IMG/VR virus record: IMGVR_UViG_3300028048_000107
Location: 12,254 to 76,253 of that record
Strand: one strand, 5' to 3'
Source of the DNA: a virus
Lineage: Duplodnaviria; Heunggongvirae; Uroviricota; Caudoviricetes
DNA length: 64,000 nt
The notes below the pieces were generated by a model that saw only the letters and a list, made by a program, of their open reading frames with translations, was not told the DNA's origin and ran no database searches. Numbering within the stretch: position 1 is the stretch's first letter; each line of letters starts with the position of its first letter. Both the position numbers and the translations under genes were made by a program. This document shows, one piece after another, positions 23,485-38,289 of this stretch.

Positions 23485-24036
23485 TTAACCTTCTCCATCT
23501 CCCGTTTCTGTATCACCCTCAGTAGGTTCTGTACTTCCTCCTTCTCCACCAGTATCTGGGTCAGGATCTGAAGTTGGCTCTGGTTCAGGTTCAGGATCTG
23601 GTTGTGGATCTACCTGTTCAGGATTATCATTAACAAGACGTTCACTAAATAATCCTTCAATCCAACTTGTAAGTCTAGTTTTTAAAGATGTAATATCACT
23701 AGCACTAATTTCTGCCTCAGTTAATTTAGCATACCCAACAAAGCTAACAAGATTGGCAGTTACAGTAAATGTCATCTTATCTACTTCTGTTACTCCTTCT
23801 GGAATATTATATGGAGTAATAGTAAGTCTAGGGCCACCAGATGCAAAATATCCTTCTACTTTTACAGCAGATAATGCTGTTACTACATCAGAACTTACCT
23901 CAATAGTTTCTAGATCAATTTTACGATAAGATCCAACCTTTAAAAGATTACTACGTTCTGCAATGGCACTTGCTTCCGTGTCATATGCATTAATAAATTG
24001 TCTGTTAAGACCGTTTCTTAGAATATATACGTTCAA
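23485..24036 (-). CDS. hypothetical protein with acidic PEPEPEP/DPDPD tail (paralog of 23041..23466)
   Basis: Shared N-terminal domain; C-terminal low-complexity PQPDPEPEPEPTSDPDPDTGGEGG. Confidence 0.4.
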   Translation of the reverse strand: MNVYILRNGLNRQFINAYDTEASAIAERSNLLKVGSYRKIDLETIEVSSDVVTALSAVKVEGYFASGGPRLTITPYNIPEGVTEVDKMTFTVTANLVSFVGYAKLTEAEISASDITSLKTRLTSWIEGLFSERLVNDNPEQVDPQPDPEPEPEPTSDPDPDTGGEGGSTEPTEGDTETGDGEG

Positions 24037-24039
24037 AAC

Positions 24040-24522
24040 TCATCCCTCCAAATTTAATAAAACTACTTTATTACTATCTAAAGACGCTTTTACGTCTATT
24101 ATTCTTTGATTTGATGACCCTCTAAAAGCTAAATTTAAATCTCTTAACTCATCTACATATTTACCATCAACTAATACATCTATATAACGCAATATTTCTT
24201 TATCACACAATGTATCATAGGTATATCCAGTATATACCCAAATCTTTTTACTTAATTTTTTACACAAAGATAATACTGTATCATAATTTTCTGGTGTTAA
24301 TGGTTCTCCACCCAATATAGATACTCTATCAACATGTTTATTATTAGCCAATTCAATGAACTTATTTTCAATATCAGGAGTCCATTCCTTACCGCCATTA
24401 AAATCCCAAGTTACTTGATTAAAACAGTTCTTACAATGAAAATGGCATCCTTGTACATATAGTGCTATACCTATACCTATACCATTTGACACATCAAAAT
24501 TTCTTATACTTGCAAAATTCAT
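24040..24522 (-). CDS. nrdG: anaerobic ribonucleotide reductase activating protein (radical SAM)
   Basis: CHFHCKNC (CxxxCxxC) near N-terminus; directly downstream of nrdD. Confidence 0.75.
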   Translation of the reverse strand: MNFASIRNFDVSNGIGIGIALYVQGCHFHCKNCFNQVTWDFNGGKEWTPDIENKFIELANNKHVDRVSILGGEPLTPENYDTVLSLCKKLSKKIWVYTGYTYDTLCDKEILRYIDVLVDGKYVDELRDLNLAFRGSSNQRIIDVKASLDSNKVVLLNLEG

Positions 24523-24854
24523 TACAACGCCTCATGATTATCTAAATGCACATATCTCTCGTTTATTTCTTGTGTTCTTCCTTGGTTAAAGAAGTTAGAA
24601 CTTATATAACCACAAACTCTACGTCTTACAACCATAAGTCTATGATCTGTATTACCACAATTTGGACACTGCCAATCAAGCTTTCCATCTTTATCTATAA
24701 TCTTTATTTCACCTTGATATCCACATACCATACAAGCGTCAGATTTAGTATTTATTTCAGCATACATTATTGTATTATAAATATGCTTAACTATAGACAT
24801 TAGTGCATCCAAATTATTAGTAACGTCACAACTTTCTACATAACTTATTGCCAA
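24522..24854 (-). CDS. nrdD: anaerobic ribonucleoside-triphosphate reductase NrdD, exon 3 (C-terminal Zn ribbon + glycyl radical)
   Basis: YAEINTKSDACMVCGY...CPNCGN zinc ribbon and RVCGY glycyl-radical motif. The 5' boundary is approximate: the first ~10-30 codons of the track ORF may be intron. Confidence 0.7.
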   Translation of the reverse strand: MAISYVESCDVTNNLDALMSIVKHIYNTIMYAEINTKSDACMVCGYQGEIKIIDKDGKLDWQCPNCGNTDHRLMVVRRRVCGYISSNFFNQGRTQEINERYVHLDNHEAL

Positions 24855-25850
24855 AGTCCCTTTGCTTGTAATTTCTTAATTACAATGCTCTCTAGCTCAT
24901 CTTTTGTTTTTTGTGATAAATCTTTTGTAAACTCAAATTTTTTAGTTTGTTCATGTTCATTTGCAAAGTCACCAAAAACTAGTTTTTCTGCAAAATATCG
25001 TTTATACACAGCATCTTTAACTGACTTACAATATCCTAAATGACATCTAGTATTATTTATTCTAATCTCTGGATCATACCTATCACGGTCTGCCCTATAA
25101 GTTACACCTAAGAAACCACTGGTGTTATTACTCATAAATGCCTTATTCCTAACATTTTCTGACTGTTTACATATCCTAAGATTAGATAATCTATTATTTA
25201 AAGGATTGCCATCTATGTGGTCAACAACATATCCAGCTTCTATCTGCTCCTTAGTTATTCCTGTTATTAACCACGCCAAATCAATCTGAGTACCCCTTGC
25301 TGGCAATCCTGTCACAACATGTTTATGAGATAATCTCCATTTATGATATTTTACATCCTCTATAAAGTCAAAATCAATAATAAATTCAGCCACTTTAATA
25401 TTTTTCTGATTATACACATTAAAAATAACTGTTTTACCATCTTCACTTATTACATAGTCATTTAAATCAGCATTAGTTCTTTGAATATCGTCTAAAAATT
25501 CGCCATATTTTAGTAATTGGTGCATATGCTTACTACATAAACAATAACCATATAAACTTATCTTCTTCTTTAAGGGTCTTTTACAAACATCACAATAAAA
25601 CATTCTCCCCTCAACCTCCGACTATATCTTAGCGTAGCAGGAAACCACTGCTTCACACCGTATGCGCTTCAAACTAGTGCCTATCTCTAGTCTTACAATT
25701 AGTCTGTACACCTTCAATTAAGCTTGGCACGGTATTTCCAAATAGTGTCTACCGTTAGCACTCTTACGAGCACACCCTTTGGCAAGGTTCACATACTTTA
25801 AGGTGGCTTTTCGGCTATGTAGATTGTCCAAACCACCTGGACTTAGTGCT
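24830..25850 (-). ncRNA. group I self-splicing intron 2 in nrdD (core 5' of the HEG, sunY-like layout); boundaries approximate
   Basis: Minus strand carries R-like CAGACUAA (~25698..25709) and S element AAGAUAUAGUCGG (~25620..25632); P-like CCUUGCCAAAGGGUG near 25790; GC-rich structured sequence unlike flanking AT-rich DNA. Confidence 0.5.
24845..25603 (-). CDS. HNH homing endonuclease (HNH plus AP2-like domain), intron-encoded
   Basis: VVDHIDGNPLNNRLSNLR HNH motif; N-terminal CDVC...C Zn; lies between nrdD exons 2 and 3, immediately 3' of the group I R/S elements; RBS GGAGG. Confidence 0.7.
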   Translation of the reverse strand: MFYCDVCKRPLKKKISLYGYCLCSKHMHQLLKYGEFLDDIQRTNADLNDYVISEDGKTVIFNVYNQKNIKVAEFIIDFDFIEDVKYHKWRLSHKHVVTGLPARGTQIDLAWLITGITKEQIEAGYVVDHIDGNPLNNRLSNLRICKQSENVRNKAFMSNNTSGFLGVTYRADRDRYDPEIRINNTRCHLGYCKSVKDAVYKRYFAEKLVFGDFANEHEQTKKFEFTKDLSQKTKDELESIVIKKLQAKGLWQ

Positions 25851-26770
25851 TGATATTCAGCTTCTTTAGTAAGTTTAGTAAACGGATCTACTTCTTCCTT
25901 TACCCAATAATGATAACTATTAGTTATATAATCTCTATCAGTAATTCCTTCTATAATACCAAATCTTCTTTGCAATGCTTTTGCAAATTTATGCACACCT
26001 GTCTCCATAGGAGTTCCATATAAACTATATGAAATATTTTCAGCTTTACGCCACTCTGCACACTTAGCATTGAGGGCCTTCATAACTTCTAATCCAAATT
26101 GTTGTCCCTTGTCCCCATCCATATGAGAACAACCTGTCATATATTTAACACATTCAAATAAACCTGCATACCCAAGACTAGCAGTAGCTATATTATTATA
26201 AAACAGTTTATCAATCTTTTCATTATGTCCTAATCTTGCTAATGCCCCATCCATCCACATAATAGGTGCTTCATCAGCAATAGTATTACTCAAGTGTGCT
26301 ATGCGCTCTTTATGTGCTTTATGGCACAATTCTGCTCTTTCATCAAACAATTCCCAAAATAAATCATAGTCCCCTTTCGATGATAACGCTATATCCACAA
26401 GATTTAATGTAATTACGCCACAATTAAATCTTCCATAATATTTATGATTTATTGGATCTGGTGTAAGAAAACTTCTGCAACCCATGCATGGGTACACATC
26501 ACCTTTAAGTTCCCTCATCTTCTTTGCTGAAATGTAATCAGGAACCATCCTTTTAGCAGTACATTTAACAGCTAATTTAGTCAAATAGTAGTATTCACTA
26601 TCTTCATATATATTATTTTCATCCAGTGTATATAATAATTTGGGGAAAGCTGGTGTAATCCACTGTCCTGCCCTATTTTTCATTCCCTGTATACGCTGAT
26701 TTAAAAATTCTTCAATAAGCATTGCAGTTTCTTTTATATATTCTGGATCTTCATTTAAGTACATAAACAC
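25718..26770 (-). CDS. nrdD: NrdD exon 2 (central catalytic part); last ~30-45 codons of this ORF are probably intron read-through
   Basis: Lies between the N-terminal ATP-cone exon and the C-terminal glycyl-radical exon on the same strand; first M of the track ORF is not the real exon start. Confidence 0.55.
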   Translation of the reverse strand: MFMYLNEDPEYIKETAMLIEEFLNQRIQGMKNRAGQWITPAFPKLLYTLDENNIYEDSEYYYLTKLAVKCTAKRMVPDYISAKKMRELKGDVYPCMGCRSFLTPDPINHKYYGRFNCGVITLNLVDIALSSKGDYDLFWELFDERAELCHKAHKERIAHLSNTIADEAPIMWMDGALARLGHNEKIDKLFYNNIATASLGYAGLFECVKYMTGCSHMDGDKGQQFGLEVMKALNAKCAEWRKAENISYSLYGTPMETGVHKFAKALQRRFGIIEGITDRDYITNSYHYWVKEEVDPFTKLTKEAEYQALSPGGLDNLHSRKATLKYVNLAKGCARKSANGRHYLEIPCQA

Positions 26771-27842
26771 AGATACAAATGGAGATTGCGGAATCCATTA
26801 TTCCGTAGACTATATCTTTATCCAAAATTGGATAGATAGCACTTCCACACATTAAAGTGTGTACGAACAAAAGTTCTAGTCGTTGCACCTTCAGCATAAA
26901 CTGCTAGGCACAGGATTATCAAACAATTAATCTATATTACTTTCCAATGTATCCCATCACAAATACATTCACCATTATGTCTTTTTAAAGCATTATATAA
27001 TTTATAGTTGCTATTGCCTACAGCGTCAACAACTGAATTATACACAATATTATTAGTAACATCTAATAGCTTTATTCTTGTGGGATTTTTACTAACGTGG
27101 TCACTCTTTATCTTTTTTATTTCATCTATATTAGCAGGTATTCCATTATCTATAATATTACCGTTATCATTTAAATATCTAAAAGAATGTTTTTTATGTG
27201 TATACCTTGTGCCTCTACAAACAGCACAAACCTTGGAATGAGAAAACTGGGGATATCTTTTACACAAATCTACAACGCAAGAAAAAATTTCTCCTGTTTC
27301 TAGAATAATTACAGGTTTACTAGATGGATTAGCATCTCCAAACTTACCATACATATGGTTAAGCTCTCCCTTTTGAGCATTACCAATAGAATCTTTAACA
27401 CTCTGGGTTAAAAATGGTTTTGCTCCTCCTCCCTTAAGATTATACCCATGACTAGGATCTGTAGTCATGAAAAATCTTATCCAAAATGATTCTTTTAAAT
27501 CAAGCTCCTCATGAGAACTAGCATAATCTATAATTTTCCACTCAAAATTCTCACTACCATACTTTTTTAATGCACGTTTAAATAACGTACAACCGTGATG
27601 TTTGTAATTTACGCTCTCAATATGTTGCCTTTTTCTATCTGCTAATTTTTGTACTGTTTGACCAATATATCTTTTACCATTGACCACGTTAATCGCTTCA
27701 TATATAATCATTATTTGATTCCCCTGTCAGCATGGTTGTTAATTATCATTTACTATAATTACTAAACGTCAACCATACACCTTAAATAATAAGTTCACTA
27801 TCTTTTCACTATAACATTACTATTATAGGCAGCCAATACTTA
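26771..27842 (-). ncRNA. group I self-splicing intron 1 in nrdD (HEG inserted 5' of the P7 core); boundaries approximate
   Basis: Minus strand has R element GUGCAACGACUAGAA (26877..26888) and S element AAGAUAUAGUCUACGG (26807..26818) about 70 nt apart, followed by a P9-like hairpin GGAAUAAUGGAUUCC. Confidence 0.55.
26932..27711 (-). CDS. GIY-YIG homing endonuclease (I-TevI-like), intron-encoded
   Basis: IYEAINVVNGKRYIGQT (GIY-YIG), R..H, ESFWI; inside intron 1 with the R/S core downstream. Confidence 0.75.
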   Translation of the reverse strand: MIIYEAINVVNGKRYIGQTVQKLADRKRQHIESVNYKHHGCTLFKRALKKYGSENFEWKIIDYASSHEELDLKESFWIRFFMTTDPSHGYNLKGGGAKPFLTQSVKDSIGNAQKGELNHMYGKFGDANPSSKPVIILETGEIFSCVVDLCKRYPQFSHSKVCAVCRGTRYTHKKHSFRYLNDNGNIIDNGIPANIDEIKKIKSDHVSKNPTRIKLLDVTNNIVYNSVVDAVGNSNYKLYNALKRHNGECICDGIHWKVI

Positions 27843-28694
27843 ACCGTTAGAGTTACACATACTATTTATTTGATAGTTAAATGTTTGCACAGAATCAGCT
27901 ATTTCTTTTTTTAAGTCTTCTAATGCAAACTTCTTTACTAAACTATCATCTAGATCACGATTTTTATACTTATTTACATAATATTCATAGCTACTTCTTA
28001 CAAATGGAGCTAAATGAGTTAATGTAATAGTTGTACCACCATATTGACTTGAAGTAACTGATGTAATTACTTGTGTTGCTAATGTGGTTGCAGTTAATAT
28101 TCTATGTGGTTTATCTATATGAACTCCATTTATGTTTGTTCCATTCTGAAGCATATCTTCTAAATTAATTAGACAACAATTTGTTAAATGCTGAGCTGCA
28201 TAATCAAGATCATGTATCTTTATTATAGCTTCTTTATCTGCCTGTATAACATCAGGAGAAAAAATATGTTTTTTAGCCAAGTGTTTACTTACAATACCTG
28301 CCATATAATCACGCTTAGTTGTAACAACATCAGCGTCTTTATTTGAATTTTCTGTAGACCAATATTCATTTTGTCCAGAAAGCATAGAGGATAACTGAGA
28401 TTCTAACTCAGTATCCATATTACGTTGAAACTCCCTAATAGCCCTATACCCCTCATAAGCTCTAGCTACATCTTTTTTACCTCTAGCAATTAATTGATTA
28501 AATACTTCAATTTCTATGTCTGAAATATTAACTTCTTTGACATTCTTATGCAAATCTTTTATATATTCAGAAATATGTAATGCTACTTTTTTAGAGACAT
28601 TCCCACAAAATTTCATTGATTTCAGTATTGCCTTGTATATCTTTTCTGCATTAAAATCCTGTAAGCTCCCATCTCTTTTTCTAACCTTTACCAC
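27843..28694 (-). CDS. nrdD: NrdD exon 1 (ATP cone + N-terminal domain)
   Basis: VKVRKRDGSLQDFNAEKIYKAI ATP-cone start; IHDLD; likely GTG start at 28694 after RBS GAGGGTGAG; exon ends ...CNSNG near 27843. Confidence 0.7.
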
Positions 28695-28716
28695 ATAACT
28701 CACCCTCACTTTTTAC

Positions 28717-28745
28717 ATAAAACAAAAAGCAAGACATCTTGCCTT
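28717..28745 (-). terminator. intrinsic terminator-like hairpin + T-run downstream of tnpB #1 and its 3' structured RNA
   Basis: Plus strand aaaacaaaaaGCAAGAcaTCTTGCcttgc: on the minus strand a hairpin followed by UUUUUGUUUU. Confidence 0.35.
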
Positions 28746-28769
28746 GCATATTTGTTCTTTGAACACTTC

Positions 28770-30140
28770 CACCACCTATAGAGGCGGGGAATTCCTGATT
28801 CATTGACTAATGCGCCAAAACCTTGGTTTCAGTGTCTTACATAATCTCCAAAGGCGTAGAGGTTATATTTAACCTCAGTTCCCATATGACCTATGGTACT
28901 ATTTGTTTCTCATGCTATATCTTTTGCTTTTGCTAAGATATTTATTGCCGCATTTCTATCTCTATCATGATGTGCTCCACATACAGGACATGTCCAATCT
29001 CGCACAAATAGATTCTTTACTAGTGGATTTTTATAGCCACATTCATGACAAGTTTGACTTGATGGGTAGAATGTAGGTATTTTTACTACTACACCACCAT
29101 GTTCTTTTGCTTTATACTCTAATTTAATAAAGAACTTACCCCATGCTACATCACTTATTGCTTTCGCTAACTTGTGATTCTTTAACATGCCTTTAATATT
29201 TAGCTTCTCAATAGCTATAAAAGCATTATCTTCTGCTAAGTGATAAGTTAATTTATGCTGAAAATCATCTCGTACATTCTTTATTTTTTCATAAATACGA
29301 GCAACTTTTATCCTTTGCTTTTCATATTGTGCTGAACCCTTTTTCTTACGAGCTAATTTTCTTTGAGCACGAGCCAATTTCTTTGCAAATTTAGCAAGTA
29401 TCTTTGGATTCTTTACTACATTACCATTAGTATCTGCATAAAAATCTTTTACTCCTACATCAATACCTATTTCATGTCCATTATTAGAAAGCAATTCTAT
29501 TTCATATTTTACACAAATAGACACATAATATTTATTTGATGCTGTACGAGTAACTGTTGCGCTTACAATTTTTCCTACCAATTCACGAGAAAGCTTGATT
29601 TTCACTCTCCCAATCTTTGGTAATTGAATTGTATTGCCTACAAGTTTAATATTACTACCTACACACTGACTTCTATATTTCTGACAATGTGCATGTTTAG
29701 ATTTAAATTTAGGATACTTAGATATCTTTTTAAAGAATCTATCATATGCTACTTGTAAATCTCGAAGGGAATTTTGAAGTGCCGTACTATCAACTTCATT
29801 AAGCCAGCTATACTCATCATACTTTTTAAGGTCTGTAAGCATAGCATTTGTAGCACTATAATTAACACTTTTATGATTGAATTTCCATTCATCTCTACGA
29901 ATTTGCAAGAAATGATTATAAATAAATCGCTTACAACCAAGAGTTTTATTTATCAATACCCTTTGCTCTTTTGTAGGATAAATTCTATATTTCATACCAC
30001 GAGTAATTTCTACTACCAAAATTCTCACCTCCTAATTATATTGTAACATATGTAAGAAGTAATTGCAAGTAATTCATCTCCCCCCTTCGCTTCGCTTAGA
30101 GGATGGAGGCTTCTTGCCACATTCTGTTAAATAAATTGTC
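28770..30140 (-). mobile_element. TnpB-only IS200/IS605-family element #1 (no tnpA); ends approximate
   Basis: ~200-nt GC-richer structured region 3' of tnpB (28770..28910) with end-hairpin motif ACCTatagAGGcGGGG (28774..28789), related to the hairpins flanking the other two tnpB genes. Confidence 0.35.
28910..30028 (-). CDS. tnpB: TnpB (IS200/IS605 OrfB family RuvC-like nuclease with zinc finger)
   Basis: MKYRIYPTKEQRVLINKTLGCKRFIYN N-terminus; C-terminal CHECGYKNP...CPVCGAHHDRDRNAAINIL ZF + RuvC-III; probable TTG/ATG start a few codons inside the track ORF. Confidence 0.8.
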   Translation of the reverse strand: MRILVVEITRGMKYRIYPTKEQRVLINKTLGCKRFIYNHFLQIRRDEWKFNHKSVNYSATNAMLTDLKKYDEYSWLNEVDSTALQNSLRDLQVAYDRFFKKISKYPKFKSKHAHCQKYRSQCVGSNIKLVGNTIQLPKIGRVKIKLSRELVGKIVSATVTRTASNKYYVSICVKYEIELLSNNGHEIGIDVGVKDFYADTNGNVVKNPKILAKFAKKLARAQRKLARKKKGSAQYEKQRIKVARIYEKIKNVRDDFQHKLTYHLAEDNAFIAIEKLNIKGMLKNHKLAKAISDVAWGKFFIKLEYKAKEHGGVVVKIPTFYPSSQTCHECGYKNPLVKNLFVRDWTCPVCGAHHDRDRNAAINILAKAKDIA

Positions 30141-30354
30141 AATCCTCATTTGGAGTTAATGACTTAACAGTTTCTTCGGCCTGATCATCCACTAAAGCAT
30201 TTGCTCTTTCATAAAGACTAGCAATATAGTCATCTACATCTTCATCTTTAAGATCTTCAACATTAGCATCATAGCCAACCTCGAATTTATAGAATTCATC
30301 CTTAATTTTCATAGTTCTAGAACTAACACAATGTATAGAATTTACTTTTGGCAA
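30139..30354 (-). CDS. hypothetical protein
   Basis: 71 aa, acidic. Confidence 0.35.
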   Translation of the reverse strand: MPKVNSIHCVSSRTMKIKDEFYKFEVGYDANVEDLKDEDVDDYIASLYERANALVDDQAEETVKSLTPNED

Positions 30355-30594
30355 TTAATCCACCTTCTTATCCAAATATACAATTATTAAATTAAGTACA
30401 AATATTGACAATACAAAATCTATTATAGTACCAACAACAGCACAAAAAAGATTACCACTAAAATATGTTTCTACTAGCCAAAGAGTAGACATTGTAATTG
30501 TTGCTACTACTAATGCTATTACTGAAAATACTATAACTACTTGTCCAAGGACTTTAAGCATTTTTAATGTTTCTTTGTATGCATCTTTTATCAT
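30355..30594 (-). CDS. small membrane protein (2 TM)
   Basis: VIVFSVIALVVATITM and IIDFVLSIFVLNLIIVYL hydrophobic segments. Confidence 0.4.
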   Translation of the reverse strand: MIKDAYKETLKMLKVLGQVVIVFSVIALVVATITMSTLWLVETYFSGNLFCAVVGTIIDFVLSIFVLNLIIVYLDKKVD

Positions 30595-30938
30595 TTTTTA
30601 ACCTTCACAAATTTGACAGCCATAGTTTTTTTCTCAATAACACAATCTGCAAATTCAGCACCATCAATTTCACCTGTAGCAATAGAATCTTCCAAAGCTT
30701 CTTCATTTACTACCTCCTTCAGTAGCCATTTTGCATTTAGCTTTTTGACTACTTCTAAAGTTTTTTCTGGATCTAATTTTTGTGATACTCTTTCTTCTAC
30801 AATAGCTTTATATTCATTTCCTTCATATGAACCTACACCTTGAGATTTTACTTCTGCCTTTAACTTATCTACTTCTTTCTTTAAAGCTGTCAATTCAGCA
30901 TTTTTAATAGCAAGCAAGTCAATTTCATTTTCTGACAT
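30591..30938 (-). CDS. hypothetical coiled-coil protein
   Basis: 115 aa; RBS AAAGGAG. Confidence 0.4.
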   Translation of the reverse strand: MSENEIDLLAIKNAELTALKKEVDKLKAEVKSQGVGSYEGNEYKAIVEERVSQKLDPEKTLEVVKKLNAKWLLKEVVNEEALEDSIATGEIDGAEFADCVIEKKTMAVKFVKVKK

Positions 30939-31045
30939 ATATAGTGCTCCTTTAAAAAATCATATTGATTAGACATGGAATAATTCGATAAAGCAATAAT
31001 ATACTGAAAATTCCTAATATAGCTATGACAAGCATAGCCATAAAC

Positions 31046-31528
31046 CTATACAATTTCATACTCATTATCTCTTAATTGATCCTCTACTGATTTTTCATCT
31101 GAACTATATTTAAGTTTATACACTGGATACTTATCTGGTGGCATGTATGGAAATTCTACTGGAACTCTTGATTCTCTACAGGTAAATTTAACCCCATCTG
31201 GTTCAGCAAAAATTCTACCCTCTACATCATAACATTCTCCAGTTTCTCTATTTTTGAATACTGCTGAATATCTTTTATTTTGCCACGTATTACCATCAGG
31301 ATCTAATATGTCTGACCACTCACCATCTTCACCTGTTAATGGTGTTAATGGCTTCCAACTCCAAAGCCTATCTACAAGTGTAATTACAATAGAAGCTGAC
31401 ATATTAGTATGTCCTTGATCTACAAGTGTTTTAAGAACTTCTAATACAGCTTTGTTCATATCATCGCCATAAAAGTCAAAGTTATATCTTTTTAATTCAT
31501 CTTCTGCCCAAGTTAACATATCTGACAT
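31046..31528 (-). CDS. hypothetical protein
   Basis: 160-aa ORF. Confidence 0.4.
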   Translation of the reverse strand: MSDMLTWAEDELKRYNFDFYGDDMNKAVLEVLKTLVDQGHTNMSASIVITLVDRLWSWKPLTPLTGEDGEWSDILDPDGNTWQNKRYSAVFKNRETGECYDVEGRIFAEPDGVKFTCRESRVPVEFPYMPPDKYPVYKLKYSSDEKSVEDQLRDNEYEIV

Positions 31529-31538
31529 AATATATACC

Positions 31539-32423
31539 TCATTTTAAGAAATCAGCACCAAGAATAAATCCACCATTATTACCATTAACTTGTGGCAAAT
31601 TTCCAGACCACTTTTCTATTGCCCTTTGACGTAATACATTTTCGGTTAAAGATTCTTGCAATTTAGCATTGGCTTGTGCTTGTCCTTCTGCTTCAATAAT
31701 AGCAGCATCTGCCTTGCCTTTAGCAGTAACTCTAGCCTTTTCAGCTTCAACTTCTGCCTGTTCCTTCTCAATCTTAGCTTGCTGCAGTGCATTCTGAGCG
31801 TTTACTACATTTTGAATTGCAGTTGCAGTTGCTTCATCAGGAACTACATCTGAAAGATTAAAAGTTTCAATAACAATTCCGTATTCTTCCAAATCATTTC
31901 TAAACGCTTCAAATATCTTTTGATTAATTTCTGGGCGTTTATCTCCAACAAGTTCCATTAAACTATATTGAGAAGTGATATTATTGAGTGCTTCATACAT
32001 AGCATTTTTCATGTAGCCATTTTGAATTGACTCAATATTTTGCCCTCTGAACTTTGCATAAACAGCAGGTAGTTTTTCTACATCCATATGATAAGCATAA
32101 GTAACGGATACATTTACCTGCTTACCATCTTTAGTATTAACATTTACACTCTTATCTACCTTCTTATCATCCTTATCACTACCATCTACAGTATTTTTTG
32201 TATAATATACTGTTTCAGTAGAGATAGGATATTCACTTACATGTTTCCACGGAGCTACAATGTGAAATCCTTGTGATAAAGTTTCGTTTTCAATACCACC
32301 GTCCATATTGTAAACTACACCAGCATATCCAGGGCCAATTCTATTTACACAAGTGAACATACCTACTGAAAAAACAGCCATTCCTGCAAAAATTCCAATA
32401 GCACCAAGATTTTTAATTTCCAT
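31539..32423 (-). CDS. SPFH/band-7 (prohibitin/HflC-K-like) membrane protein
   Basis: N-terminal TM; GYAGVVYNMDGG...GFHIVAPW...NVNTKDGKQVNVSVTYAYHMD SPFH core; C-terminal Ala/Gln/Glu coiled coil. Confidence 0.6.
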   Translation of the reverse strand: MEIKNLGAIGIFAGMAVFSVGMFTCVNRIGPGYAGVVYNMDGGIENETLSQGFHIVAPWKHVSEYPISTETVYYTKNTVDGSDKDDKKVDKSVNVNTKDGKQVNVSVTYAYHMDVEKLPAVYAKFRGQNIESIQNGYMKNAMYEALNNITSQYSLMELVGDKRPEINQKIFEAFRNDLEEYGIVIETFNLSDVVPDEATATAIQNVVNAQNALQQAKIEKEQAEVEAEKARVTAKGKADAAIIEAEGQAQANAKLQESLTENVLRQRAIEKWSGNLPQVNGNNGGFILGADFLK

Positions 32424-32566
32424 GTTAAACTCCTTAAAAAATCTTATTGAAAAATTTCTTTATCTCTCTGCCTACTTCCTTACCATAATGAAAACATAGA
32501 TACGCCCAAATAACAATAAAAGCTATTAAGATACAAAAGAACATTGCTCTCATGTTTAATCAACTC

Positions 32567-33085
32567 TCAATCTAAAATCTCTATTGTAGCATATCGTACA
32601 CCAAATTCATTACATTCAGCTACAGAATTCATAAAAATATCTAATACTCCATCTGTAGCAACTCTGTCTTTTATAACATAAATCTGACCATTATACCGAA
32701 CTCTTGTCCCCAAAGGTAAACCGTTCATAGCTGCACACCCCACATAAGGAACTTCACCATTAGCCATAACACTATTAGGAGTTAAGCCATCATTAAGAGC
32801 GTATGCGCTTACCTTTACTTGCATTGTCCTATAGCTTAATTGTTGTGCCTTTTGTACCTGACCTTTTAACTCTGAAATTTCCTCATTCTTAGATTGAAGG
32901 TCAACTTTTAATTCATTTACATACTCAGCCTGTTTTTTAACAGAAATATCTAATACTTCTATTGCTTGACTTCTTGATTCTAATTTTACTTCTAGTTCTT
33001 TTGTGTGGTTATACCACAATACATTACTTCCAATTAGCATTCCTGCTAAGATTAAACTTCCTACAATTTTCTTTTTCTGAGTCAT
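32567..33085 (-). CDS. membrane-anchored 3D-domain protein (MltA/YocH-like, putative peptidoglycan hydrolase)
   Basis: Start placed at MTQKKKIVGSLILAG (ATG 33085): the track extension contains the -10 of the promoter at 33154..33182. Coiled coil, then C-terminal 3D domain (LPLGTRVRYNGQIYVIKDRVATDGVLDIFM). Confidence 0.5.
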   Translation of the reverse strand: MTQKKKIVGSLILAGMLIGSNVLWYNHTKELEVKLESRSQAIEVLDISVKKQAEYVNELKVDLQSKNEEISELKGQVQKAQQLSYRTMQVKVSAYALNDGLTPNSVMANGEVPYVGCAAMNGLPLGTRVRYNGQIYVIKDRVATDGVLDIFMNSVAECNEFGVRYATIEILD

Positions 33086-33153
33086 TCGCCCGCCAGTCGA
33101 GCAAGTCCTAATGGCTTGCTTTGCTGACTTCCCTCCTTTGATTTGATAAACAT

Positions 33154-33182
33154 AGTATAACACATTTTTAAGCCCCTGTCAA
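33154..33182 (-). promoter_or_regulatory. sigma-A-type promoter (TTGACA-N17-TGtTATACT)
   Basis: tgtcaa 33177..33182; agtata 33154..33159. Confidence 0.5.
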
Positions 33183-33199
33183 GACTTATTTTTAGAAAA

Positions 33200-33499
33200 C
33201 TATTCTTCCCAGCTGACAACCTTTCTCATTGCCTTTGGAAAGTCAGTTGTTTCCTTAACTACAACCTTGAAGTCATCATCCCCAACAATAATATGCCCAC
33301 ATACTGGACACACAAACTTGTTATTATAATTTTGAAGAGACTTTTGCAGGGAATTTACATCCAATCTATCTTCCAAAATATAAGTGAACACATCGTCCAT
33401 ATCAAAATATTTCTTACAGTTAGGACATCTAACCATAGCCCTTAATATTGGTTGAGGTGCATAACTTACAAGTAATTCTAACTTATCCATAAATACCAA
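33200..33499 (-). CDS. zinc-ribbon protein
   Basis: RCPNCKKYFD...CPVCGHII. Confidence 0.4.
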   Translation of the reverse strand: MVFMDKLELLVSYAPQPILRAMVRCPNCKKYFDMDDVFTYILEDRLDVNSLQKSLQNYNNKFVCPVCGHIIVGDDDFKVVVKETTDFPKAMRKVVSWEE

Positions 33500-34049
33500 A
33501 CCTTTCCATATATAAATGAAATTCTACAAATTCTGGGATTGAAATTTCAGACTTCTTTATTACTGCTCTTTCAAATGTATGTTTTGTATTATCTGGAAAT
33601 GTTATAGTAAATACTTGACTGGTTTCTTCCATAGGATAACCTAGTATATTAAAGTATTCTTTAAACATTTTTACTTTTTCTTTTGCTATTTCTTCATATT
33701 CTTTTTTCTTCCATCCTTTTTTCTTTACTAATCCTGCTCGTTTTTTAATAGCAAAAGGATGTGTCTGCCACAGGTCAAAATGTATCTTTATAGTTTTACC
33801 TTCAAGATGTGGAAATTTATCTATAAACTTTTGTGTAGGTTTATAAATCCATACCATTCCTTTTTCTTCACCTATGACTTCATCTAATATAAATTTTGCC
33901 ATTTTATTAGTATGAGAATCTTGTAGCCAAATTACATTTTCTTCTTGCGGATTTCCATAGAAAAGGCTGGGCTTTAAGTGACTAGTATAGCCAGTATAGC
34001 CATTTTTATGCTCTAGCATATGTTTACTGTTAATCACTCTTGATTTCAT
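33483..34049 (-). CDS. hypothetical protein
   Basis: 188 aa, lysine-rich. Confidence 0.4.
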   Translation of the reverse strand: MKSRVINSKHMLEHKNGYTGYTSHLKPSLFYGNPQEENVIWLQDSHTNKMAKFILDEVIGEEKGMVWIYKPTQKFIDKFPHLEGKTIKIHFDLWQTHPFAIKKRAGLVKKKGWKKKEYEEIAKEKVKMFKEYFNILGYPMEETSQVFTITFPDNTKHTFERAVIKKSEISIPEFVEFHLYMERFGIYG

Positions 34050-35766
34050 CTAGTTCTCCTTCCCCTGTTAATAGGAAATTTAATACTTTTTCATCTTTAA
34101 GATCATACTTATGATCCACTAACGCATCTCCAAGAGCACCCTTCCTTTTTACTATTGAGTGAATATTTTCATCTATAGTATGTTTGCAGACAAGTGTGAT
34201 TACAGTTACAGTTTCTGTCTGACCTATTCTATGACATCGATCTTCACACTGAAGTTTTTCGCTGGCACTCCATGATTCATCTAAAAATATTACATTAGAC
34301 GCTTTATTTAATGTCAGCCCAACGCCCATTGCCCCAACTGTACCAACTATAATATGACAATCATCATTTTCATTAAAATATTTAATTTGCCCTTCCCTAT
34401 CCTTTATTTTACCAGTTATTGCGGCTGAAGTCAGGTGATTGTCACTTAGAAATTTTCTGAAATTTGACACTACTGTTTCCCAACAAGAAAATACAATAAC
34501 AGATTCATTTCGTTCAATAATTTCTTGTATTAACTCTAGTGCTCTATCAAACTTAACGGATTCTTTTACAGTACTAGAAAGAATACTAGTATCAGCTGTT
34601 GCTTGTCTAAGTCTTATCATTTGACTAAGTGGATTTATACTTAATTTAATATTATCAATGTCTGCCACAATAGCATTTAAAACATCTTTATATATTTTCT
34701 TTTGCTTTACTGACATATCCAAAAACTCTTCCACATAAATTTTAGGTGGCAATTGTTTTAGTACATCAGCTTTTCTAAGCCTTTTAGACACTGATATAAG
34801 CTTTGCTTGTAATTCATCTAAATGTTTATGCCCCACCACTTGGTAATTTCCGAACCCTCCTAGTATATCATATCTAGACCTAAAATTACTGAAATTTCCT
34901 GTAAATGCTCCTGTAATCTTTAATGGAATATAAAGATCATCTGGTCTATTCATGAGTATAGTACCAGTAAGTAAGTACACATATTTAACATGATTAGTTA
35001 ATCTTAATAATGCCTTTGATTGTTGTGCAGAAGGTGAAACTATTTTATGACTTTCATCTACTACAATACAATTAAATACACCCTTATCCATTAACTTAAC
35101 TAACTTATCTGTAATAGTTTTCTCTCTAATTGACTCAATGTTAGTAACATAAATAGAAACATCATTCTCAAGATTATTTAAATCTTCTAATTTTTCTTTT
35201 GTACCTTTAGTAAGCCATATACCTTTGCTATTCTGTCTATTACCTAAAATTTTACACTTAACTCCTGTTGTATGCTTATTTACTTCATTTTCCCAAGTAT
35301 ACTTAAGCAGGTTCATTGCTGGTAGTATAAGTACTTTATTTATCTGCCCTAGCTCTATTCTTTTTAGTATTGTAGCTATTGTGCAATTAGTTTTTCCAAG
35401 TCCTTGGTCGAGATTATAAATATAACGATCAAAAGCCATTCCTTCATCAAAGGTTTCTTTTTGATATGGATATAATTTAGTAACTAATGCTTTAGGCAAC
35501 TCTATACTATGGTCTACTATTTTTTCTCCATATTTTTTAGGACTTATTGGATCACCGTAAACATCAAATTTCTCTTTTGGCAAAAGCTCTTTTAATTCAG
35601 ATAATGCAGAGTAGTCTAACTCCCACATCTTTTCTTCATTATGCCAATATCTTGGTGTTATTTTTCTTATTGCATCTACGATATTCTGCTTGTATCTAAA
35701 TGTCAAAAATAAACTTTGTTCTATTCCTTTTAATTTTTTTGGTTTTCCATATTTTGCATTAATCAT
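34030..35766 (-). CDS. SNF2-family (RAD54-like) helicase
   Basis: Motif I LDQGLGKTNCTIA, motif II DESHKI, motif III LLTGTILMNRPDDLY, motif VI QCEDRCHRIGQTETV. Confidence 0.75.
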   Translation of the reverse strand: MINAKYGKPKKLKGIEQSLFLTFRYKQNIVDAIRKITPRYWHNEEKMWELDYSALSELKELLPKEKFDVYGDPISPKKYGEKIVDHSIELPKALVTKLYPYQKETFDEGMAFDRYIYNLDQGLGKTNCTIATILKRIELGQINKVLILPAMNLLKYTWENEVNKHTTGVKCKILGNRQNSKGIWLTKGTKEKLEDLNNLENDVSIYVTNIESIREKTITDKLVKLMDKGVFNCIVVDESHKIVSPSAQQSKALLRLTNHVKYVYLLTGTILMNRPDDLYIPLKITGAFTGNFSNFRSRYDILGGFGNYQVVGHKHLDELQAKLISVSKRLRKADVLKQLPPKIYVEEFLDMSVKQKKIYKDVLNAIVADIDNIKLSINPLSQMIRLRQATADTSILSSTVKESVKFDRALELIQEIIERNESVIVFSCWETVVSNFRKFLSDNHLTSAAITGKIKDREGQIKYFNENDDCHIIVGTVGAMGVGLTLNKASNVIFLDESWSASEKLQCEDRCHRIGQTETVTVITLVCKHTIDENIHSIVKRKGALGDALVDHKYDLKDEKVLNFLLTGEGELDEIKSD

Positions 35767-35948
35767 AAATTAAACTTCCTTATCGCAATACTCATTATTC
35801 CTGCTACAAAAGCATTTACAAAAGAAAAATAATGTGTACTGAATATTGTGTCTATACCTAAAAGTAATATTGTTCCTTGTACAAATCCTACAATCATGCT
35901 TGCTATTACTGACGCGAATAATATTCTCATTTCTTTCTCCTCATACAA
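35763..35948 (-). CDS. small membrane protein
   Basis: 61 aa, two hydrophobic helices; RBS GAGGAG. Confidence 0.35.
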   Translation of the reverse strand: MYEEKEMRILFASVIASMIVGFVQGTILLLGIDTIFSTHYFSFVNAFVAGIMSIAIRKFNL

Positions 35949-36071
35949 TTAACACTAACATGTGAACTACTCCCACTTATAAAAGTGGGAGCTTCTAATT
36001 ATCATCGCTTCACTGTCTAAGTATAAAAACTTGTCCTATACGTAGATATATGTGATAACTCCCATTAGACT

Positions 36072-37511
36072 TTAGGACAAGTTCCTTGCCCTTTTTGAAC
36101 GCAAATTAGCTAAAGAAAACTTACTTTGCTTTTCCTCAAATAATTTAGGTTCAATCATAGATATTCCAATATCTCTAATATTCAAAGATGCATTATAATC
36201 TCTATATAGATGTTTACCACAACCGCCACAATCATACTCCTTAATAGCTAAATTTTTAGTCAATGCGTTTATATAACCGCACTCATGGCATTTTTGTGTA
36301 GATTTTTCAAACCTATTTATCTTTACAAAAATCATGCCTTTATGTTTTAGTTTATACTCTAACATTAACCTAAACATACCAAATCCATTGTCTAACAAGT
36401 TTTTAGCTATTTTAAGTGTTTGCGACATTGCTCTTAAATCAATATCTTCTACAGAAACTAGTGCAAATTGCTTTGCTATCCTAAAGGAAAGTACATGTAG
36501 TGCATTCTTCCTTATATTAGCTATCTTCCTATGAAGTTTTTGAATTCTTTTAAGCAACTTTAGGTACGCATTGCTTTGTTTTTCCTTCTTCGCAAGTTTT
36601 TTCTGTAATGCTTTAAGCTTACATTCATTTTTGCGATATGTCTTTTGAAAGGATGCTAATATATTATCTAATAAGGTTTTATCCTTACTGCTAGGAACAC
36701 ATCCACCTTGTTGTGCATAATCTAATCCAAGACATAATTCTTTATGTTCATTCAAATAATCTTTGACTTTACATAAAGTTTCTTTATCATGTTTTAATGT
36801 AACATACTCTTTAGTATATATTACAGTTAAAGACACAGTATATCTATCTTGACCTATTCGCTTAATAACTGCTTTGGTTATTCTGTAATTTTCTGGTAGG
36901 TCACGATGATACCTTAGTTTTATTGGATTCTTTAACTTAGGTATTACAAGCGTCATATACCTACTACTTTCTCCAAGATACTCTTCTAACCTTACTGTAC
37001 CTTTTTGATTATTGGTAGTAAAAGATTGTTCAGAAAAGAATTTAGCTGAAAATTTAGGCATACCTTTTAAATCTCTAAAAGTAAGCTCTTTGCCTATAGT
37101 CTTAACTTGTTTAAGAGCTTTCTTTTTATATTGATTACCTTTAGACACAAATTCATCATTATATTTCTTAATAGAGTTTACAAAATCTAGCCTTACCGCT
37201 GATAAAGCTAATGAATCTACTGCTTTCATATAAGAAAACTTTTCTTTTATAAATTTAACTGTAGGTAAATTCTTTACAAATTCTTTAGGAATATAGCCAC
37301 GCTTAAAATTTATACTTTCAAGATAATCATATAACTGAGCAACAAATATATTATGTAATTGACGTTTACAACCGCAATTTTTATGGATATACTGACATTG
37401 CTCAGTAGTTGGGTATATTTCATAGACATACCCAGCAGTAAACTCTTTTTCTAATTTTTCCAAGAATCCCAATCTTAAAAACTTGTCTTGTAGATTATGC
37501 ACAACATTCAC
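36072..37511 (-). CDS. tnpB: TnpB (IS200/IS605 OrfB family), 479 aa
   Basis: N-terminal YVYEIYPTTEQCQYIHKNCGCKRQLHN; C-terminal KCHECGYINA...CGGCGKHLYRDYNASLNI ZF + RuvC-III; own promoter TTGACA-N17-TAAAAT at 37525..37553 and RBS AAAGGAGG. Confidence 0.75.
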   Translation of the reverse strand: MNVVHNLQDKFLRLGFLEKLEKEFTAGYVYEIYPTTEQCQYIHKNCGCKRQLHNIFVAQLYDYLESINFKRGYIPKEFVKNLPTVKFIKEKFSYMKAVDSLALSAVRLDFVNSIKKYNDEFVSKGNQYKKKALKQVKTIGKELTFRDLKGMPKFSAKFFSEQSFTTNNQKGTVRLEEYLGESSRYMTLVIPKLKNPIKLRYHRDLPENYRITKAVIKRIGQDRYTVSLTVIYTKEYVTLKHDKETLCKVKDYLNEHKELCLGLDYAQQGGCVPSSKDKTLLDNILASFQKTYRKNECKLKALQKKLAKKEKQSNAYLKLLKRIQKLHRKIANIRKNALHVLSFRIAKQFALVSVEDIDLRAMSQTLKIAKNLLDNGFGMFRLMLEYKLKHKGMIFVKINRFEKSTQKCHECGYINALTKNLAIKEYDCGGCGKHLYRDYNASLNIRDIGISMIEPKLFEEKQSKFSLANLRSKRARNLS

Positions 37512-37524
37512 CTCCTTTATAGAT

Positions 37525-37553
37525 ATTTTAACATATCTTTAGGGTTTTGTCAA
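37525..37553 (-). promoter_or_regulatory. sigma-A-type promoter for tnpB #2 (TTGACA-N17-TAAAAT)
   Basis: Plus-strand tgtcaa 37548..37553 and atttta 37525..37530; RBS and ATG follow. Confidence 0.5.
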
Positions 37554-37702
37554 TCCTCACCTCTATAGGTAGGGGATTGACTTGCTGATAAATTTACTTC
37601 ATCAACTTCTTCTATAATTTTAATAATATCTTCTTTTGACATTTCTTCCAACCCTTAACGACAGTTTCTTTCCATTCTTGTGTCAACATAATTATCTCAT
37701 TT

Positions 37703-37795
37703 CTATACAACTAGTACAAATATATAAAATAAAAATTCTACTCCTAATACTGTTAATGCTCCGTACAAAAACCACTTAACACTATTTTCTGACAT
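37703..37795 (-). CDS. small hydrophobic peptide (30 aa), absent from ORF track
   Basis: ATG 37795 after GGGGAG; MSENSVKWFLYGALTVLGVEFLFYIFVLVV; immediately downstream of promoter 37831..37859. Confidence 0.25.
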   Translation of the reverse strand: MSENSVKWFLYGALTVLGVEFLFYIFVLVV

Positions 37796-37830
37796 TTCTC
37801 CCCAACTCTTTTCTTTTAATTTCTGTACAT

Positions 37831-37859
37831 AGTATAACATATTTTTGTCCCTTTGTCAA
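37831..37859 (-). promoter_or_regulatory. sigma-A-type promoter (TTGACA-N17-TATACT)
   Basis: tgtcaa 37854..37859, agtata 37831..37836 on plus strand; TGt extended -10. Confidence 0.5.
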
Positions 37860-37862
37860 GAA

Positions 37863-37890
37863 CAAAAAAGGCAGAAATTTATTTTCTGCC
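37863..37890 (-). terminator. intrinsic terminator immediately upstream of promoter
   Basis: GGCAGAAAtttatTTTCTGCC hairpin with a 7-nt T-run on the minus strand. Confidence 0.55.
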
Positions 37891-37893
37891 TTA

Positions 37894-38127: not shown

Positions 38128-38289
38128 CCCATAGCTGAAGCTAGAGGGTTCTTAGGTACTTGATAGCCTTTTCTTACTCTCGAAAGATACAAGTATCAAC
38201 TATCTTCCCTAAAACTTTTACAGACAAGTGCTCCACTGAACGCATTAGCGTCTGCATAAGGCCCGTTTCAAGACCTTTAATATTTTATG
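38127..38289 (-). ncRNA. candidate omega-RNA scaffold / IStron 3' region (tnpB stop to right-end hairpin)
   Basis: ~160-nt GC-richer segment (GAAACGGGCCUUAUGCAGACGCUAAUGCGUUCAGUGGAGCAC...) between tnpB stop and the right-end hairpin; by analogy to TnpB systems the guide would be the ~16-20 nt just beyond 38126. Confidence 0.3.

What the first reader, a model, noticed from the sequence alone, without database searches (positions are those of the whole stretch)
28770..30140. TnpB-only IS element #1 immediately upstream of nrdD
Canonical TnpB (MKYRIYPTKEQ...; CHECG...CPVCG ZF) with no tnpA in the window. Its 200-nt 3' region is GC-rich (CCACCACCUAUAGAGGCGGGGAAUUCC...), ends in a terminator (28717..28745) and carries a hairpin-GGGG motif related to the ends of the other two elements. 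Three tnpB copies in ~11 kb of a phage genome is unusual and suggests an RNA-guided nuclease arsenal, or active element turnover in the phage population.
Basis: partly seen in the sequence, partly recalled or inferred. Interest (0 to 1): 0.55.

Follow-up and report, generated by a model that had tools for sequence, protein, structure and literature searches.

The report
Mobile TnpB guide-RNA element in phage
This is an ordinary kind of selfish DNA, an insertion sequence carrying only the RNA-guided nuclease TnpB and its guide RNA. Comparison with sister phages shows the family is still moving between sites in these phage genomes, and this copy landed in the promoter of the nrdD gene.

Summary
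Window 28759-30126 (minus strand) is a 1,368-bp IS200/IS605-family element with an intact tnpB and no tnpA anywhere in the 64 kb. TnpB scores 481 bits against NCBIfam IS200_TnpB (cut-off 425) and keeps the RuvC D179/E263/D346 residues.

- **Guide RNA:** the 151 nt after the stop codon form a conserved structured RNA. 84% of pair cells are paired, against 36-48% in slid controls, and 22 of 35 pairs show compensatory changes. It ends exactly at the element boundary (…GTGTTCAA|), as a TnpB guide RNA (omegaRNA) should.
- **Empty sites:** two sister phages have an intact nrdD promoter at this position. A third carries the same element 395 bp upstream, inside a small ORF.
- **Other copies:** copies at least 88% identical sit at six or more further sites, nearly all 3' of TTTAG and ending in the same GTGTTCAA. 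In the one filled-versus-empty comparison available there is no target duplication. Their dN/dS is 0.1-0.2, and one pair at different sites is almost identical (dS 0.009).
- **Corrections:** the "terminator" is phage nrdD leader sequence, not part of the element. This copy's left end is damaged, and 21 bp of target, including the nrdD -10 box, are missing.

Verdict: a new member of a known kind, with active turnover supported. Homing between co-infecting phages is plausible but untested.

The parts
28759..30126 (-). Whole element (LE ... tnpB ... omegaRNA/RE), 1,368 bp
   Evidence: Limits come from filled versus empty sites in sister phages (L001, L030, L031) and from copies in other contexts (L032, L118, L124, L127). 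Homology always starts at CAGA(A/G)..GTGGCAAG and stops at GTGTTCAA.
30127..30131 (-). Flanking pentanucleotide at the TAM (transposon-adjacent motif) position, TTTAA
   Evidence: Six other insertion sites of this element have TTTAG here; bacterial and plasmid relatives have TTTAT.
30137..30142 (-). Orphan -35 box (TTGACA) of the nrdD promoter. Its spacer end and -10 box (21 nt, TTTGTGGTATAATATAATTAG) are missing in the window.
   Evidence: Empty sites in L030, L031 and L001 read TTGACA-17 nt-TATAAT-ATAATTAG|AGAACAAAT.
30020..30126 (-). Left end (LE), non-coding
   Evidence: Alignment of six copies. The window lacks 10 nt (GCCACAAACT), which removes the 3' half of the conserved outer stem GTGGCAA/TTGCCAC.
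30078..30108 (-). LE hairpin CTCCATCCT-loop-AGGGGGGAG (one A.G mismatch in this copy)
   Evidence: Perfect or wobble-paired in other copies, with compensatory changes: L032 CTCCACCCT/AGGGTGGAG, L118 CTCCATTCT/AGAGTGGAG, L122 GCCCGCCT/AGGCGGGT, L123 TCCCGCTT/AAGCGGGA.
30040..30068 (-). Promoter-like site for tnpB (TTGCAA-17-TACAAT with TG), followed by RBS AGGAGG at 30028-30033
   Evidence: Consensus scan; conserved in most copies. Function not shown.
28910..30019 (-). tnpB CDS (369 aa from TTG 30019; ATG at 29995 gives 361 aa)
   Evidence: D179, E263, D346 and the CxxC...CxxC motif are invariant in 30 homologues and present here. dN/dS is 0.10-0.20 among phage copies, apart from 0.50 for the near-identical L118/L127 pair.
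28759..28900 (-). omegaRNA scaffold (five helices), ending at the RE boundary
   Evidence: Conserved in 34 loci and diverging immediately after GTGT(T)CAA. Covariation test. Two compensatory double changes are specific to the window copy.
28767..28791 (-). RE hairpin (also the terminal omegaRNA hairpin) with a bulged T, followed by GTGTTCAA
28739..28758 (-). Predicted guide of the omegaRNA (flank, AGAACAAAUAUGCAAGGCAA; real length unknown, about 16-20 nt)
   Evidence: First bases after the RE. Identical in relatives with an empty site, where they follow AATTAG. Only one perfect copy in the window.
28719..28747 (-). Hairpin plus U-tract of the nrdD leader; NOT part of the element
   Evidence: The same sequence sits downstream of the intact promoter in L030, L031 and L001.

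Best explanation
Window 28759-30126 (minus strand) is a non-autonomous IS200/IS605-family insertion sequence of the IS1341 type. It carries tnpB and its guide RNA but no tnpA, and it sits in the nrdD promoter of a large AT-rich phage.

Shown:
- TnpB is full length with an intact RuvC triad and zinc ribbon, and is under purifying selection.
- The 3' 142-151 nt encode a conserved structured RNA that ends at the element boundary.
- The family inserts 3' of TTTAG and always ends in GTGTTCAA. The one filled-versus-empty comparison available (L001 against the window) shows no target duplication.
- Its position differs between sister phages, and near-identical copies occupy different sites.

Inferred from work on ISDra2 and ISGst:
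- New insertions are made by a Y1 TnpA supplied in trans, since the junction signature is that of this chemistry.
- Transcription from the LE promoter yields tnpB mRNA and an omegaRNA whose last ~16-20 nt (AGAACAAAUAUGCAAG...) are read from the nrdD leader.
- TnpB-omegaRNA cuts element-free alleles (TAM plus that sequence), and recombination with an element-bearing genome re-installs the element.

This particular copy has a damaged left side: TTTAA instead of TTTAG, 21 bp of target lost, a 10-nt LE deletion and a hairpin mismatch. It is probably poorly mobilisable or not mobilisable by TnpA. Its nuclease and guide module is nevertheless maintained. nrdD must now be transcribed by read-through from the element.
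For: - **Protein identity:** (481 bits against a cut-off of 425; ISDra2 TnpB, E=8e-95 over the full length). Catalytic residues.
- **omegaRNA:**. 84.1% of cells are paired against 35.7-48.4% when slid; 22 pairs have double changes; 0 of 500 shuffles reach the observed score. Window-specific compensatory changes.
- **Limits and empty sites:**
- **Insertion-site census (TTTAG|...GTGTTCAA|):**. No duplication at the filled versus empty site.
- **Selection and recent movement:** (dN/dS 0.10-0.20; L118 versus L127 dS 0.009 at different sites).
- **No tnpA in the window or in any phage copy, but adjacent in bacterial relatives:**
- **Composition:** tnpB is 30.9% G+C, like the phage (31.2%), against 44-54% in bacterial homologues.
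- **Mechanism precedent:** PMC10055086 and PMC13565253.
Against: - No RNA or cleavage data exist; expression of TnpB and the omegaRNA is inferred.
- No cognate TnpA was found. The nearest bacterial elements with tnpA share only about 60% TnpB identity and have different LE hairpins.
- The window copy's flank is TTTAA and its LE is damaged, so this copy may be immobile.
- The empty alleles in relatives carry ATTAG, not TTTAG, before the guide match. Related TnpB2 is reported to be highly sensitive to TAM changes, so cleavage of those alleles is uncertain.
- Rfam has no matching family.
Confidence: 0.8

Rival explanations
1. Decaying relic: the element is dead cargo, fixed at this site, and neither TnpB nor the RNA does anything any more.
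For: The left side is damaged in this copy: TTTAA flank, 10-nt LE deletion, A.G mismatch in the LE hairpin and 21 bp of target lost. No tnpA is present. This exact insertion site was seen only in the window.
Against: The ORF is intact with all catalytic residues. dN/dS against six other copies is 0.13-0.20. Two stems of the RNA carry compensatory double substitutions specific to this copy, so the RNA structure was kept under selection after divergence.
Confidence: 0.1
2. Domesticated nuclease: the phage keeps TnpB-omegaRNA as a weapon or homing drive against co-infecting relatives, independent of transposition. This would be the RNA-guided analogue of the T4 Seg/Mob free-standing endonucleases.
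For: The nuclease and RNA are maintained while the LE decays. The guide matches a leader sequence that is 100% conserved in three relatives. The neighbourhood is packed with other selfish nucleases that are present or absent between relatives: a GIY-YIG ORF in nrdD, IscB in L029, other TnpBs. Empty alleles carry single-base TAM variants: TATAG at the L001-type site in the window and L031, ATTAG at the window-type site. The concept is discussed as 'non-restorative homing' in PMC13565253.
Against: There is no functional test. The TAM variants could be plain polymorphism. The many new sites with exact TTTAG|/TCAA| junctions need a transposase, not homing. No co-conversion gradient could be measured with the few genomes available.
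Confidence: 0.35
3. IStron-like element: the insert is removed from RNA by self-splicing, which would explain why copies can sit inside ORFs (the 79-aa ORF, DNA ligase).
For: Copies interrupt ORFs in several independent assemblies. IStrons combine group I introns with IS605 tnpB (PMC10690162, listed).
Against: No group I or II intron hit even at E<=1. Only 107 nt lie between the LE and the tnpB start. The upstream exon would end in G or A and the insert ends in A, not the U...G expected for group I splicing (sequence).
Confidence: 0.03
4. TldR-like nuclease-dead repressor using the guide to regulate nrdD.
For: The guide is complementary to the nrdD leader. Phage-encoded TnpB-derived repressors exist (PMC13418256, listed).
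Against: The RuvC triad and zinc ribbon are intact. At its own locus the target is preceded by the RE end (GTTCAA), not by a TAM. The guide-flank match is automatic for any IS605 insertion.
Confidence: 0.02

Closest known systems
ISDra2 TnpB-omegaRNA (Deinococcus radiodurans; PDB 8BF8/8EXA/8H1J)
   Same: Full-length homologue (E=8e-95). Same three Pfam domains, RuvC D-E-D, zinc ribbon, and a 3' guide RNA that ends at the RE with the guide read from the flank.
   Different: ISDra2 carries tnpA and uses TAM TTGAT. Here there is no tnpA, the flank motif is TTTAG (TTTAA in this copy), and the carrier is a phage.
ISGst2 TnpB2 of Geobacillus stearothermophilus (Meers et al., PMC10055086)
   Same: Belongs to the family of mostly tnpA-less elements thought to be mobilised in trans. 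Its TAM TTTAT is shared by the bacterial and plasmid relatives found here. Its role is cutting the empty donor joint so that recombination restores the element.
   Different: No ISGst2 sequence was compared here. Bacillaceae chromosomal homologues share about 47-51% identity with the window TnpB. The phage clade has shifted the last TAM base (T to G). No cognate TnpA was identified.
IS1341-group elements and 'transposase' phrog_506 genes of cultured phages (e.g. Enterocloster phage CB473P3, Bacillus phage phiNIT1, Clostridium phage c-st)
   Same: TnpB-only genes in phage genomes. 414 GenBank phage records match, some with 4-5 copies. The match to phrog_506 is 426 bits.
   Different: Best identity is only 54.6%. 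No nucleotide-level relative is in GenBank phages.
Free-standing homing endonuclease genes of T4-like phages (Seg, Mob)
   Same: Presence/absence polymorphism between near-identical phages. Location between or inside conserved nucleotide-metabolism genes (nrdD, thymidine kinase, ligase). Co-occurrence with a GIY-YIG ORF in nrdD.
   Different: Target recognition would be by RNA, and the element has transposon ends. Homing has not been shown.

Membership tests
TnpB (IS200/IS605 RNA-guided endonuclease) | Sequence-model membership above the curated cut-off | tested here: met
   NF038281 scores 481 bits against a cut-off of 425. PF12323, PF01385 and PF07282 are all above their gathering scores.
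TnpB (IS200/IS605 RNA-guided endonuclease) | RuvC D-E-D catalytic triad and C-terminal CxxC...CxxC zinc ribbon | tested here: met
   D179, E263, D346 and C316/C319/C336/C339 are invariant in 30 homologues and present in the window protein.
TnpB (IS200/IS605 RNA-guided endonuclease) | RNA-guided DNA cleavage next to a TAM | not testable with these tools
   Needs biochemistry or an interference assay.
omegaRNA (reRNA) | Conserved structured RNA at the 3' end of tnpB that ends at the RE boundary and is followed by unrelated flank (the guide) | tested here: met
   34 loci align up to GTGT(T)CAA and then diverge. Five helices; 84% of cells paired against 36-48% when slid; 22 of 35 pairs with double changes.
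omegaRNA (reRNA) | Match to a curated RNA family | tested here: not met
   No Rfam hit at gathering score or at E<=1. This shows only that this scaffold type is not in Rfam 15.
omegaRNA (reRNA) | Transcript actually made and bound by TnpB | not testable with these tools
   No expression data.
IS200/IS605 insertion sequence | Insertion without target duplication or terminal inverted repeats | tested here: met
   The L001 filled site (…GTAGTTTTAG|element|TATTTTCAG…) compared with the window empty site (…GTAGTTATAG|TATTTTCAG…) shows no duplicated bases.
IS200/IS605 insertion sequence | Constant 4-5-nt target motif 5' of the LE | tested here: inconclusive
   TTTAG at six independent sites of the family, so the feature is met for the family. 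The window copy has TTTAA, and 21 bp of target are missing.
IS200/IS605 insertion sequence | Subterminal hairpins at both ends | tested here: met
   The LE and RE hairpins share a CCACC(C)T/AGG(G)TGG core and show compensatory changes between copies. In the window the LE hairpin has one mismatch and the outer stem is deleted.
IS200/IS605 insertion sequence | Y1 (HUH) transposase TnpA in the element | tested here: not met
   No tblastn hit in the window or in any phage copy, while 20 or more bacterial relatives have tnpA about 50 nt upstream of tnpB. The element is therefore filed as non-autonomous (IS1341 type).
IStron | Group I intron ribozyme flanking the IS genes, with U...G splice-site bases | tested here: not met
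   No intron model hit. The flank ends in G or A and the element ends in A.
TldR (nuclease-dead TnpB repressor) | Inactivated RuvC site | tested here: not met
   Triad intact.
Type V CRISPR-Cas12 | Adjacent CRISPR array | tested here: not met
   No arrays in 24000-42000.
Homing element of phages (works-like, not membership) | Presence/absence polymorphism at the same site between closely related phages | tested here: met
   Empty in L030 and L031; at another site in L001, L116 and L117.
Homing element of phages (works-like, not membership) | Biased inheritance after cleavage of the empty allele | not testable with these tools
   Needs phage crosses.

The most novel reading that the evidence does not exclude
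A phage-restricted, tnpA-less TnpB lineage (flank motif TTTAG, composition fully adapted to 31% G+C phages) spreads among co-infecting lytic phages as an RNA-guided homing element. It would be the RNA-guided counterpart of the T4 Seg/Mob endonucleases. The window copy, with a decayed transposon left end but a selected nuclease and guide, would be a step from transposon to pure homing or competition module. It has also replaced the nrdD promoter.
Probability: 0.3. Interest if true: 0.65.

Novelty: new member of a known kind. Interest (0 to 1): 0.4.

Why it matters
TnpB-only insertion sequences are common in phage genomes, but it is mostly unknown what keeps them there without a transposase. This locus offers a small natural series: the same element at different sites in sister phages, matching empty sites with one-base differences at the TAM position, and one copy whose transposon end is decaying while nuclease and guide are kept. 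With these, 'non-restorative homing' by a transposon nuclease between co-infecting phages could be tested directly. For annotation, the result gives exact element limits, the flank motif (TTTAG) and a guide-RNA structure for a clade that Rfam does not cover.

Tried and rejected
- **Rfam:** the whole window at gathering score and 25-41 kb at E<=1 gave nothing.
- **GenBank phages:** megablast of the locus gave no match.
- **Exact-protein look-up:** the window TnpB is not on record.
- **RE pattern scans:** IMG/VR and JGI metagenomes returned only the L001 contig and its source contig, so no second genome with the window-type insertion was found.
- **Cognate transposase:** the best 80 TnpA-bearing viral loci contain no LE of this type and none lies on the sister-phage contigs. 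This is a weak negative, because only 80 of 548 or more were kept.
- **Bacterial species representatives:** the best TnpB identity is 60%, so no 'same IS with tnpA' exists in a host genome.
- **Rejected readings:** IStron, TldR and CRISPR-Cas12 (see membership tests).
- **The 21-bp loss:** I tried to explain it by microhomology and by alternative TnpA or TnpB cuts. None fits exactly, so it stays unexplained.
- **Caution on assemblies:** L124 and L125 share a left flank but have different right flanks. This may be recombination between copies or an assembly chimera, so I did not build on it.

Full report
**What is there.** On the minus strand an ORF ends at 28910. It starts at ATG 29995 (361 aa) or, more likely, at TTG 30019 (369 aa), 8 nt behind AGGAGG, which is how the gene is called in relatives. 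It carries the three TnpB Pfam domains. It passes the curated NCBIfam model for IS200/IS605 TnpB (481 bits, cut-off 425). It aligns over its full length with ISDra2 TnpB of known structure (E=8e-95). In an alignment with 29 homologues the RuvC residues D179, E263 and D346 and the four zinc-ribbon cysteines are invariant and present here. A tblastn with a Y1 TnpA finds nothing in the 64-kb window. There is no CRISPR array nearby.

**Element limits from sister phages.** GenBank phages hold no close relative, but IMG/VR and public assemblies do.
- *L001/L029* (IMGVR_UViG_3300032007_004072, 148 kb; 94-98% nucleotide identity in the aligned blocks of this region) has the same element. There it sits 395 bp further upstream, inside the 79-aa ORF that is intact in the window (30355-30594).
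- The junctions read …GTAGTTTTAG|CAGAGTGTGGCAAG…GTGTTCAA|TATTTTCAG…. The window's uninterrupted site reads …GTAGTTATAG|TATTTTCAG…, so there is no target duplication.
- *L030 and L031*, two further sister phages, have nothing at the window's site. They read GAGGATTGACA(A/T)TTTA(A/T)TTAATTTGTGGTATAATATAATTAG|AGAACAAATATGCAAGG…, a textbook TTGACA-17-TATAAT promoter in front of the nrdD leader.
- The element is therefore window 28759-30126.
- The hairpin plus U-tract at 28719-28747 is nrdD leader sequence, present in all relatives without the element. It is not the element's terminator.

**The guide RNA.** The 3' non-coding region is detectable by nhmmer in 34 loci, down to about 50% TnpB identity. 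All alignments run up to …GAGTGT(T)CAA and become unrelated immediately after it. On a trimmed alignment of 29 sequences I tested a five-helix structure taken from the minimum-free-energy fold of one bacterial member.
- 84.1% of pair cells form standard pairs, against 35.7-48.4% when the 3' partners are slid by 1-3 columns.
- 22 of 35 pairs show changes on both sides.
- No shuffle out of 500 reaches the observed covariation.
- Relative to its closest copies, the window RNA carries two compensatory double substitutions: G-C to A-U in helix 1 and C-G to U-A in the terminal hairpin.

This is the anatomy of a TnpB omegaRNA. The predicted guide is the flank AGAACAAAUAUGCAAGGCAA (28758-28739). Rfam has no matching family. 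Expression is inferred, not shown.

**The family is mobile in phages.** Copies at least 88% identical occur in other contexts:
- 3' of a thymidine kinase gene (L118-120);
- inside an NAD-ligase ORF (L127-129);
- at one site in L032, and with one left flank but two different right flanks in L124 and L125;
- next to a ligase fragment (L033).

Six of the seven left flanks read TTTAG|C, and every right end is GTGTTCAA|. Bacterial and plasmid relatives have TTTAT|C, the TAM shown experimentally for ISGst2 TnpB2 (PMC10055086).

Pairwise dN/dS among seven phage copies is 0.10-0.20. The one exception is the L118/L127 pair (0.50), whose copies lie at different sites and are almost identical (dS 0.009).

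Exact, duplication-free joins at a fixed pentanucleotide are the signature of Y1-transposase chemistry. A TnpA acting in trans is therefore inferred. It was not found:
- Bacterial relatives with an adjacent tnpA (Selenomonas, Mitsuokella, Anaerovibrio, Collinsella, Blautia) share only about 60% TnpB identity or less and have different LE hairpins.
- The best 80 TnpA loci in IMG/VR have no LE of this type.
- Relatives at 64-71% identity are also tnpA-less and lie on phage- or plasmid-like contigs.

tnpB has the composition of the phage (30.9% against 31.2% G+C), whereas bacterial homologues have 44-54%. This points to long residence in AT-rich mobile genomes.

**What is special about this copy.** Its right side is exact: RE|AGAACAAAT follows …AATTAG in the empty sites. 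Its left side is not.
- The flank is TTTAA.
- The 21 nt TTTGTGGTATAATATAATTAG, which include the -10 box, are missing.
- The LE lacks 10 nt that form the 3' half of an outer stem (GTGGCAA/TTGCCAC). Four of the other five close copies keep the full stem and L124 keeps most of it; a covarying equivalent is seen in L122.
- The LE hairpin has an A.G mismatch.

The simplest reading is an insertion 3' of AATTAG followed by decay on the LE side. The alternative is an insertion 3' of TTTAA with loss of 21 nt next to the RE. The available genomes cannot decide between them.

Either way the nrdD promoter is destroyed. nrdD must be transcribed by read-through from the element's own promoter-like site (30068-30040). 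This is inference. A decaying transposon end combined with a selected nuclease and RNA suggests that the nuclease module matters on its own.

**Mechanism and rivals.** The best-supported reading is a non-autonomous IS200/IS605 element whose TnpB-omegaRNA cuts element-free alleles, so that recombination re-installs the element. This is established for ISDra2 and ISGst and discussed for co-infecting phages as 'non-restorative homing' (PMC13565253).

Points consistent with homing between phages:
- The guide target is 100% conserved in three relatives.
- Empty alleles differ from TTTAG by one base: ATTAG at the window-type site, and TATAG at the L001-type site in the window and L031.

Because related TnpB2 is reported to be TAM-sensitive, these variants could equally mean resistance or plain polymorphism. 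Nothing here tests cleavage.

Other readings fare worse:
- *Pure relic:* disfavoured by dN/dS and by the compensatory RNA changes.
- *IStron:* rejected. There is no intron model hit, the LE is too short, and the boundary bases are wrong.
- *TldR-type repressor:* rejected. The catalytic site is intact.

**Context.** All three tnpB inserts of the window are absent from relatives (#2 35952-37702; #3 38119-40322).
- The relatives carry other selfish nucleases instead: an IscB-like ORF in L029 and L030 and a Cas12f-like TnpB in L031.
- nrdD itself is broken up by a GIY-YIG ORF and another insert in the window, but is continuous elsewhere.
- TnpB genes in cultured phages are common: 414 records, some with 4-5 copies. 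Three copies is therefore notable but not unprecedented.

**Verdict.** 'TnpB-only IS' and 'active turnover' are supported. It is a new member of a known kind, of moderate interest as a natural test case for RNA-guided homing in phages.

Noticed in passing
window 24852-28709 (minus strand): nrdD is in pieces: the N part at 27843-28709, a GIY-YIG ORF at 26935-27711, and the middle part at 25721-26770. Segments 26789-27842 and 24852-25831 are absent from L030, where nrdD is continuous at those points. L030 and L031 carry a different ~775-nt insert at window 26479. L116 has an uninterrupted 734-aa NrdD. No group I intron model hits.
   Followed up: partly
L029:2085-3347 (site corresponds to window ~40785): Sister phages L029 and L030 carry a 1.5-kb insert that the window lacks. 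In L029 it encodes a 420-aa IscB-like protein with a PLMP motif, RuvC GIDAGS and an HNH domain. The ORF was read in L029 only.
   Followed up: no
L031:2672-4018: A different 448-aa TnpB/Cas12f-like ORF (NF040570 75 bits, Cas12f2 47 bits) is inserted between the 71-aa ORF and the nrdD promoter in sister phage L031.
   Followed up: no
window 35952-37702 and 38119-40322: The inserts holding TnpB #2 and #3 are absent from L029 and L030. #3 has the same hairpin at both ends (38126-38150 and 40279-40303). #2 seems to carry an extra small ORF upstream of its own LE (TTTAT|CAGCAAG…).
   Followed up: partly
window 33184-33488: A 305-bp segment with a 99-aa zinc-ribbon-like ORF is present in the window and L030 but absent from L001.
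   Followed up: no
L127:284-1662, L128, L129; L001:5860-7235: Near-identical copies of element #1 interrupt ORFs elsewhere: the adenylation domain of an NAD-dependent DNA ligase and the 79-aa membrane-like ORF. They recur in several independent assemblies, so the disrupted alleles seem to persist.
   Followed up: partly
window 28719-28747 and the empty sites of L030/L031: In relatives, a hairpin plus U-tract lies between the nrdD promoter and the nrdD ribosome-binding site. It might be a leader attenuator of nrdD.
   Followed up: no
window 31046-31528 (minus strand): The 160-aa ORF corresponds to a gene whose precomputed Pfam hit in L116 and L117 is PF25185 (Tad3).
   Followed up: no
L124 versus L125: Same left flank (…TCTTTTAG|) but different right flanks after the RE. 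This is either recombination between element copies or an assembly chimera at a repeat.
   Followed up: no
L123:5419-7728: A 64%-identical tnpA-less TnpB sits next to an RtcB gene that is split by a LAGLIDADG-like ORF (faint Pfam hit) on a 56-kb contig.
   Followed up: no
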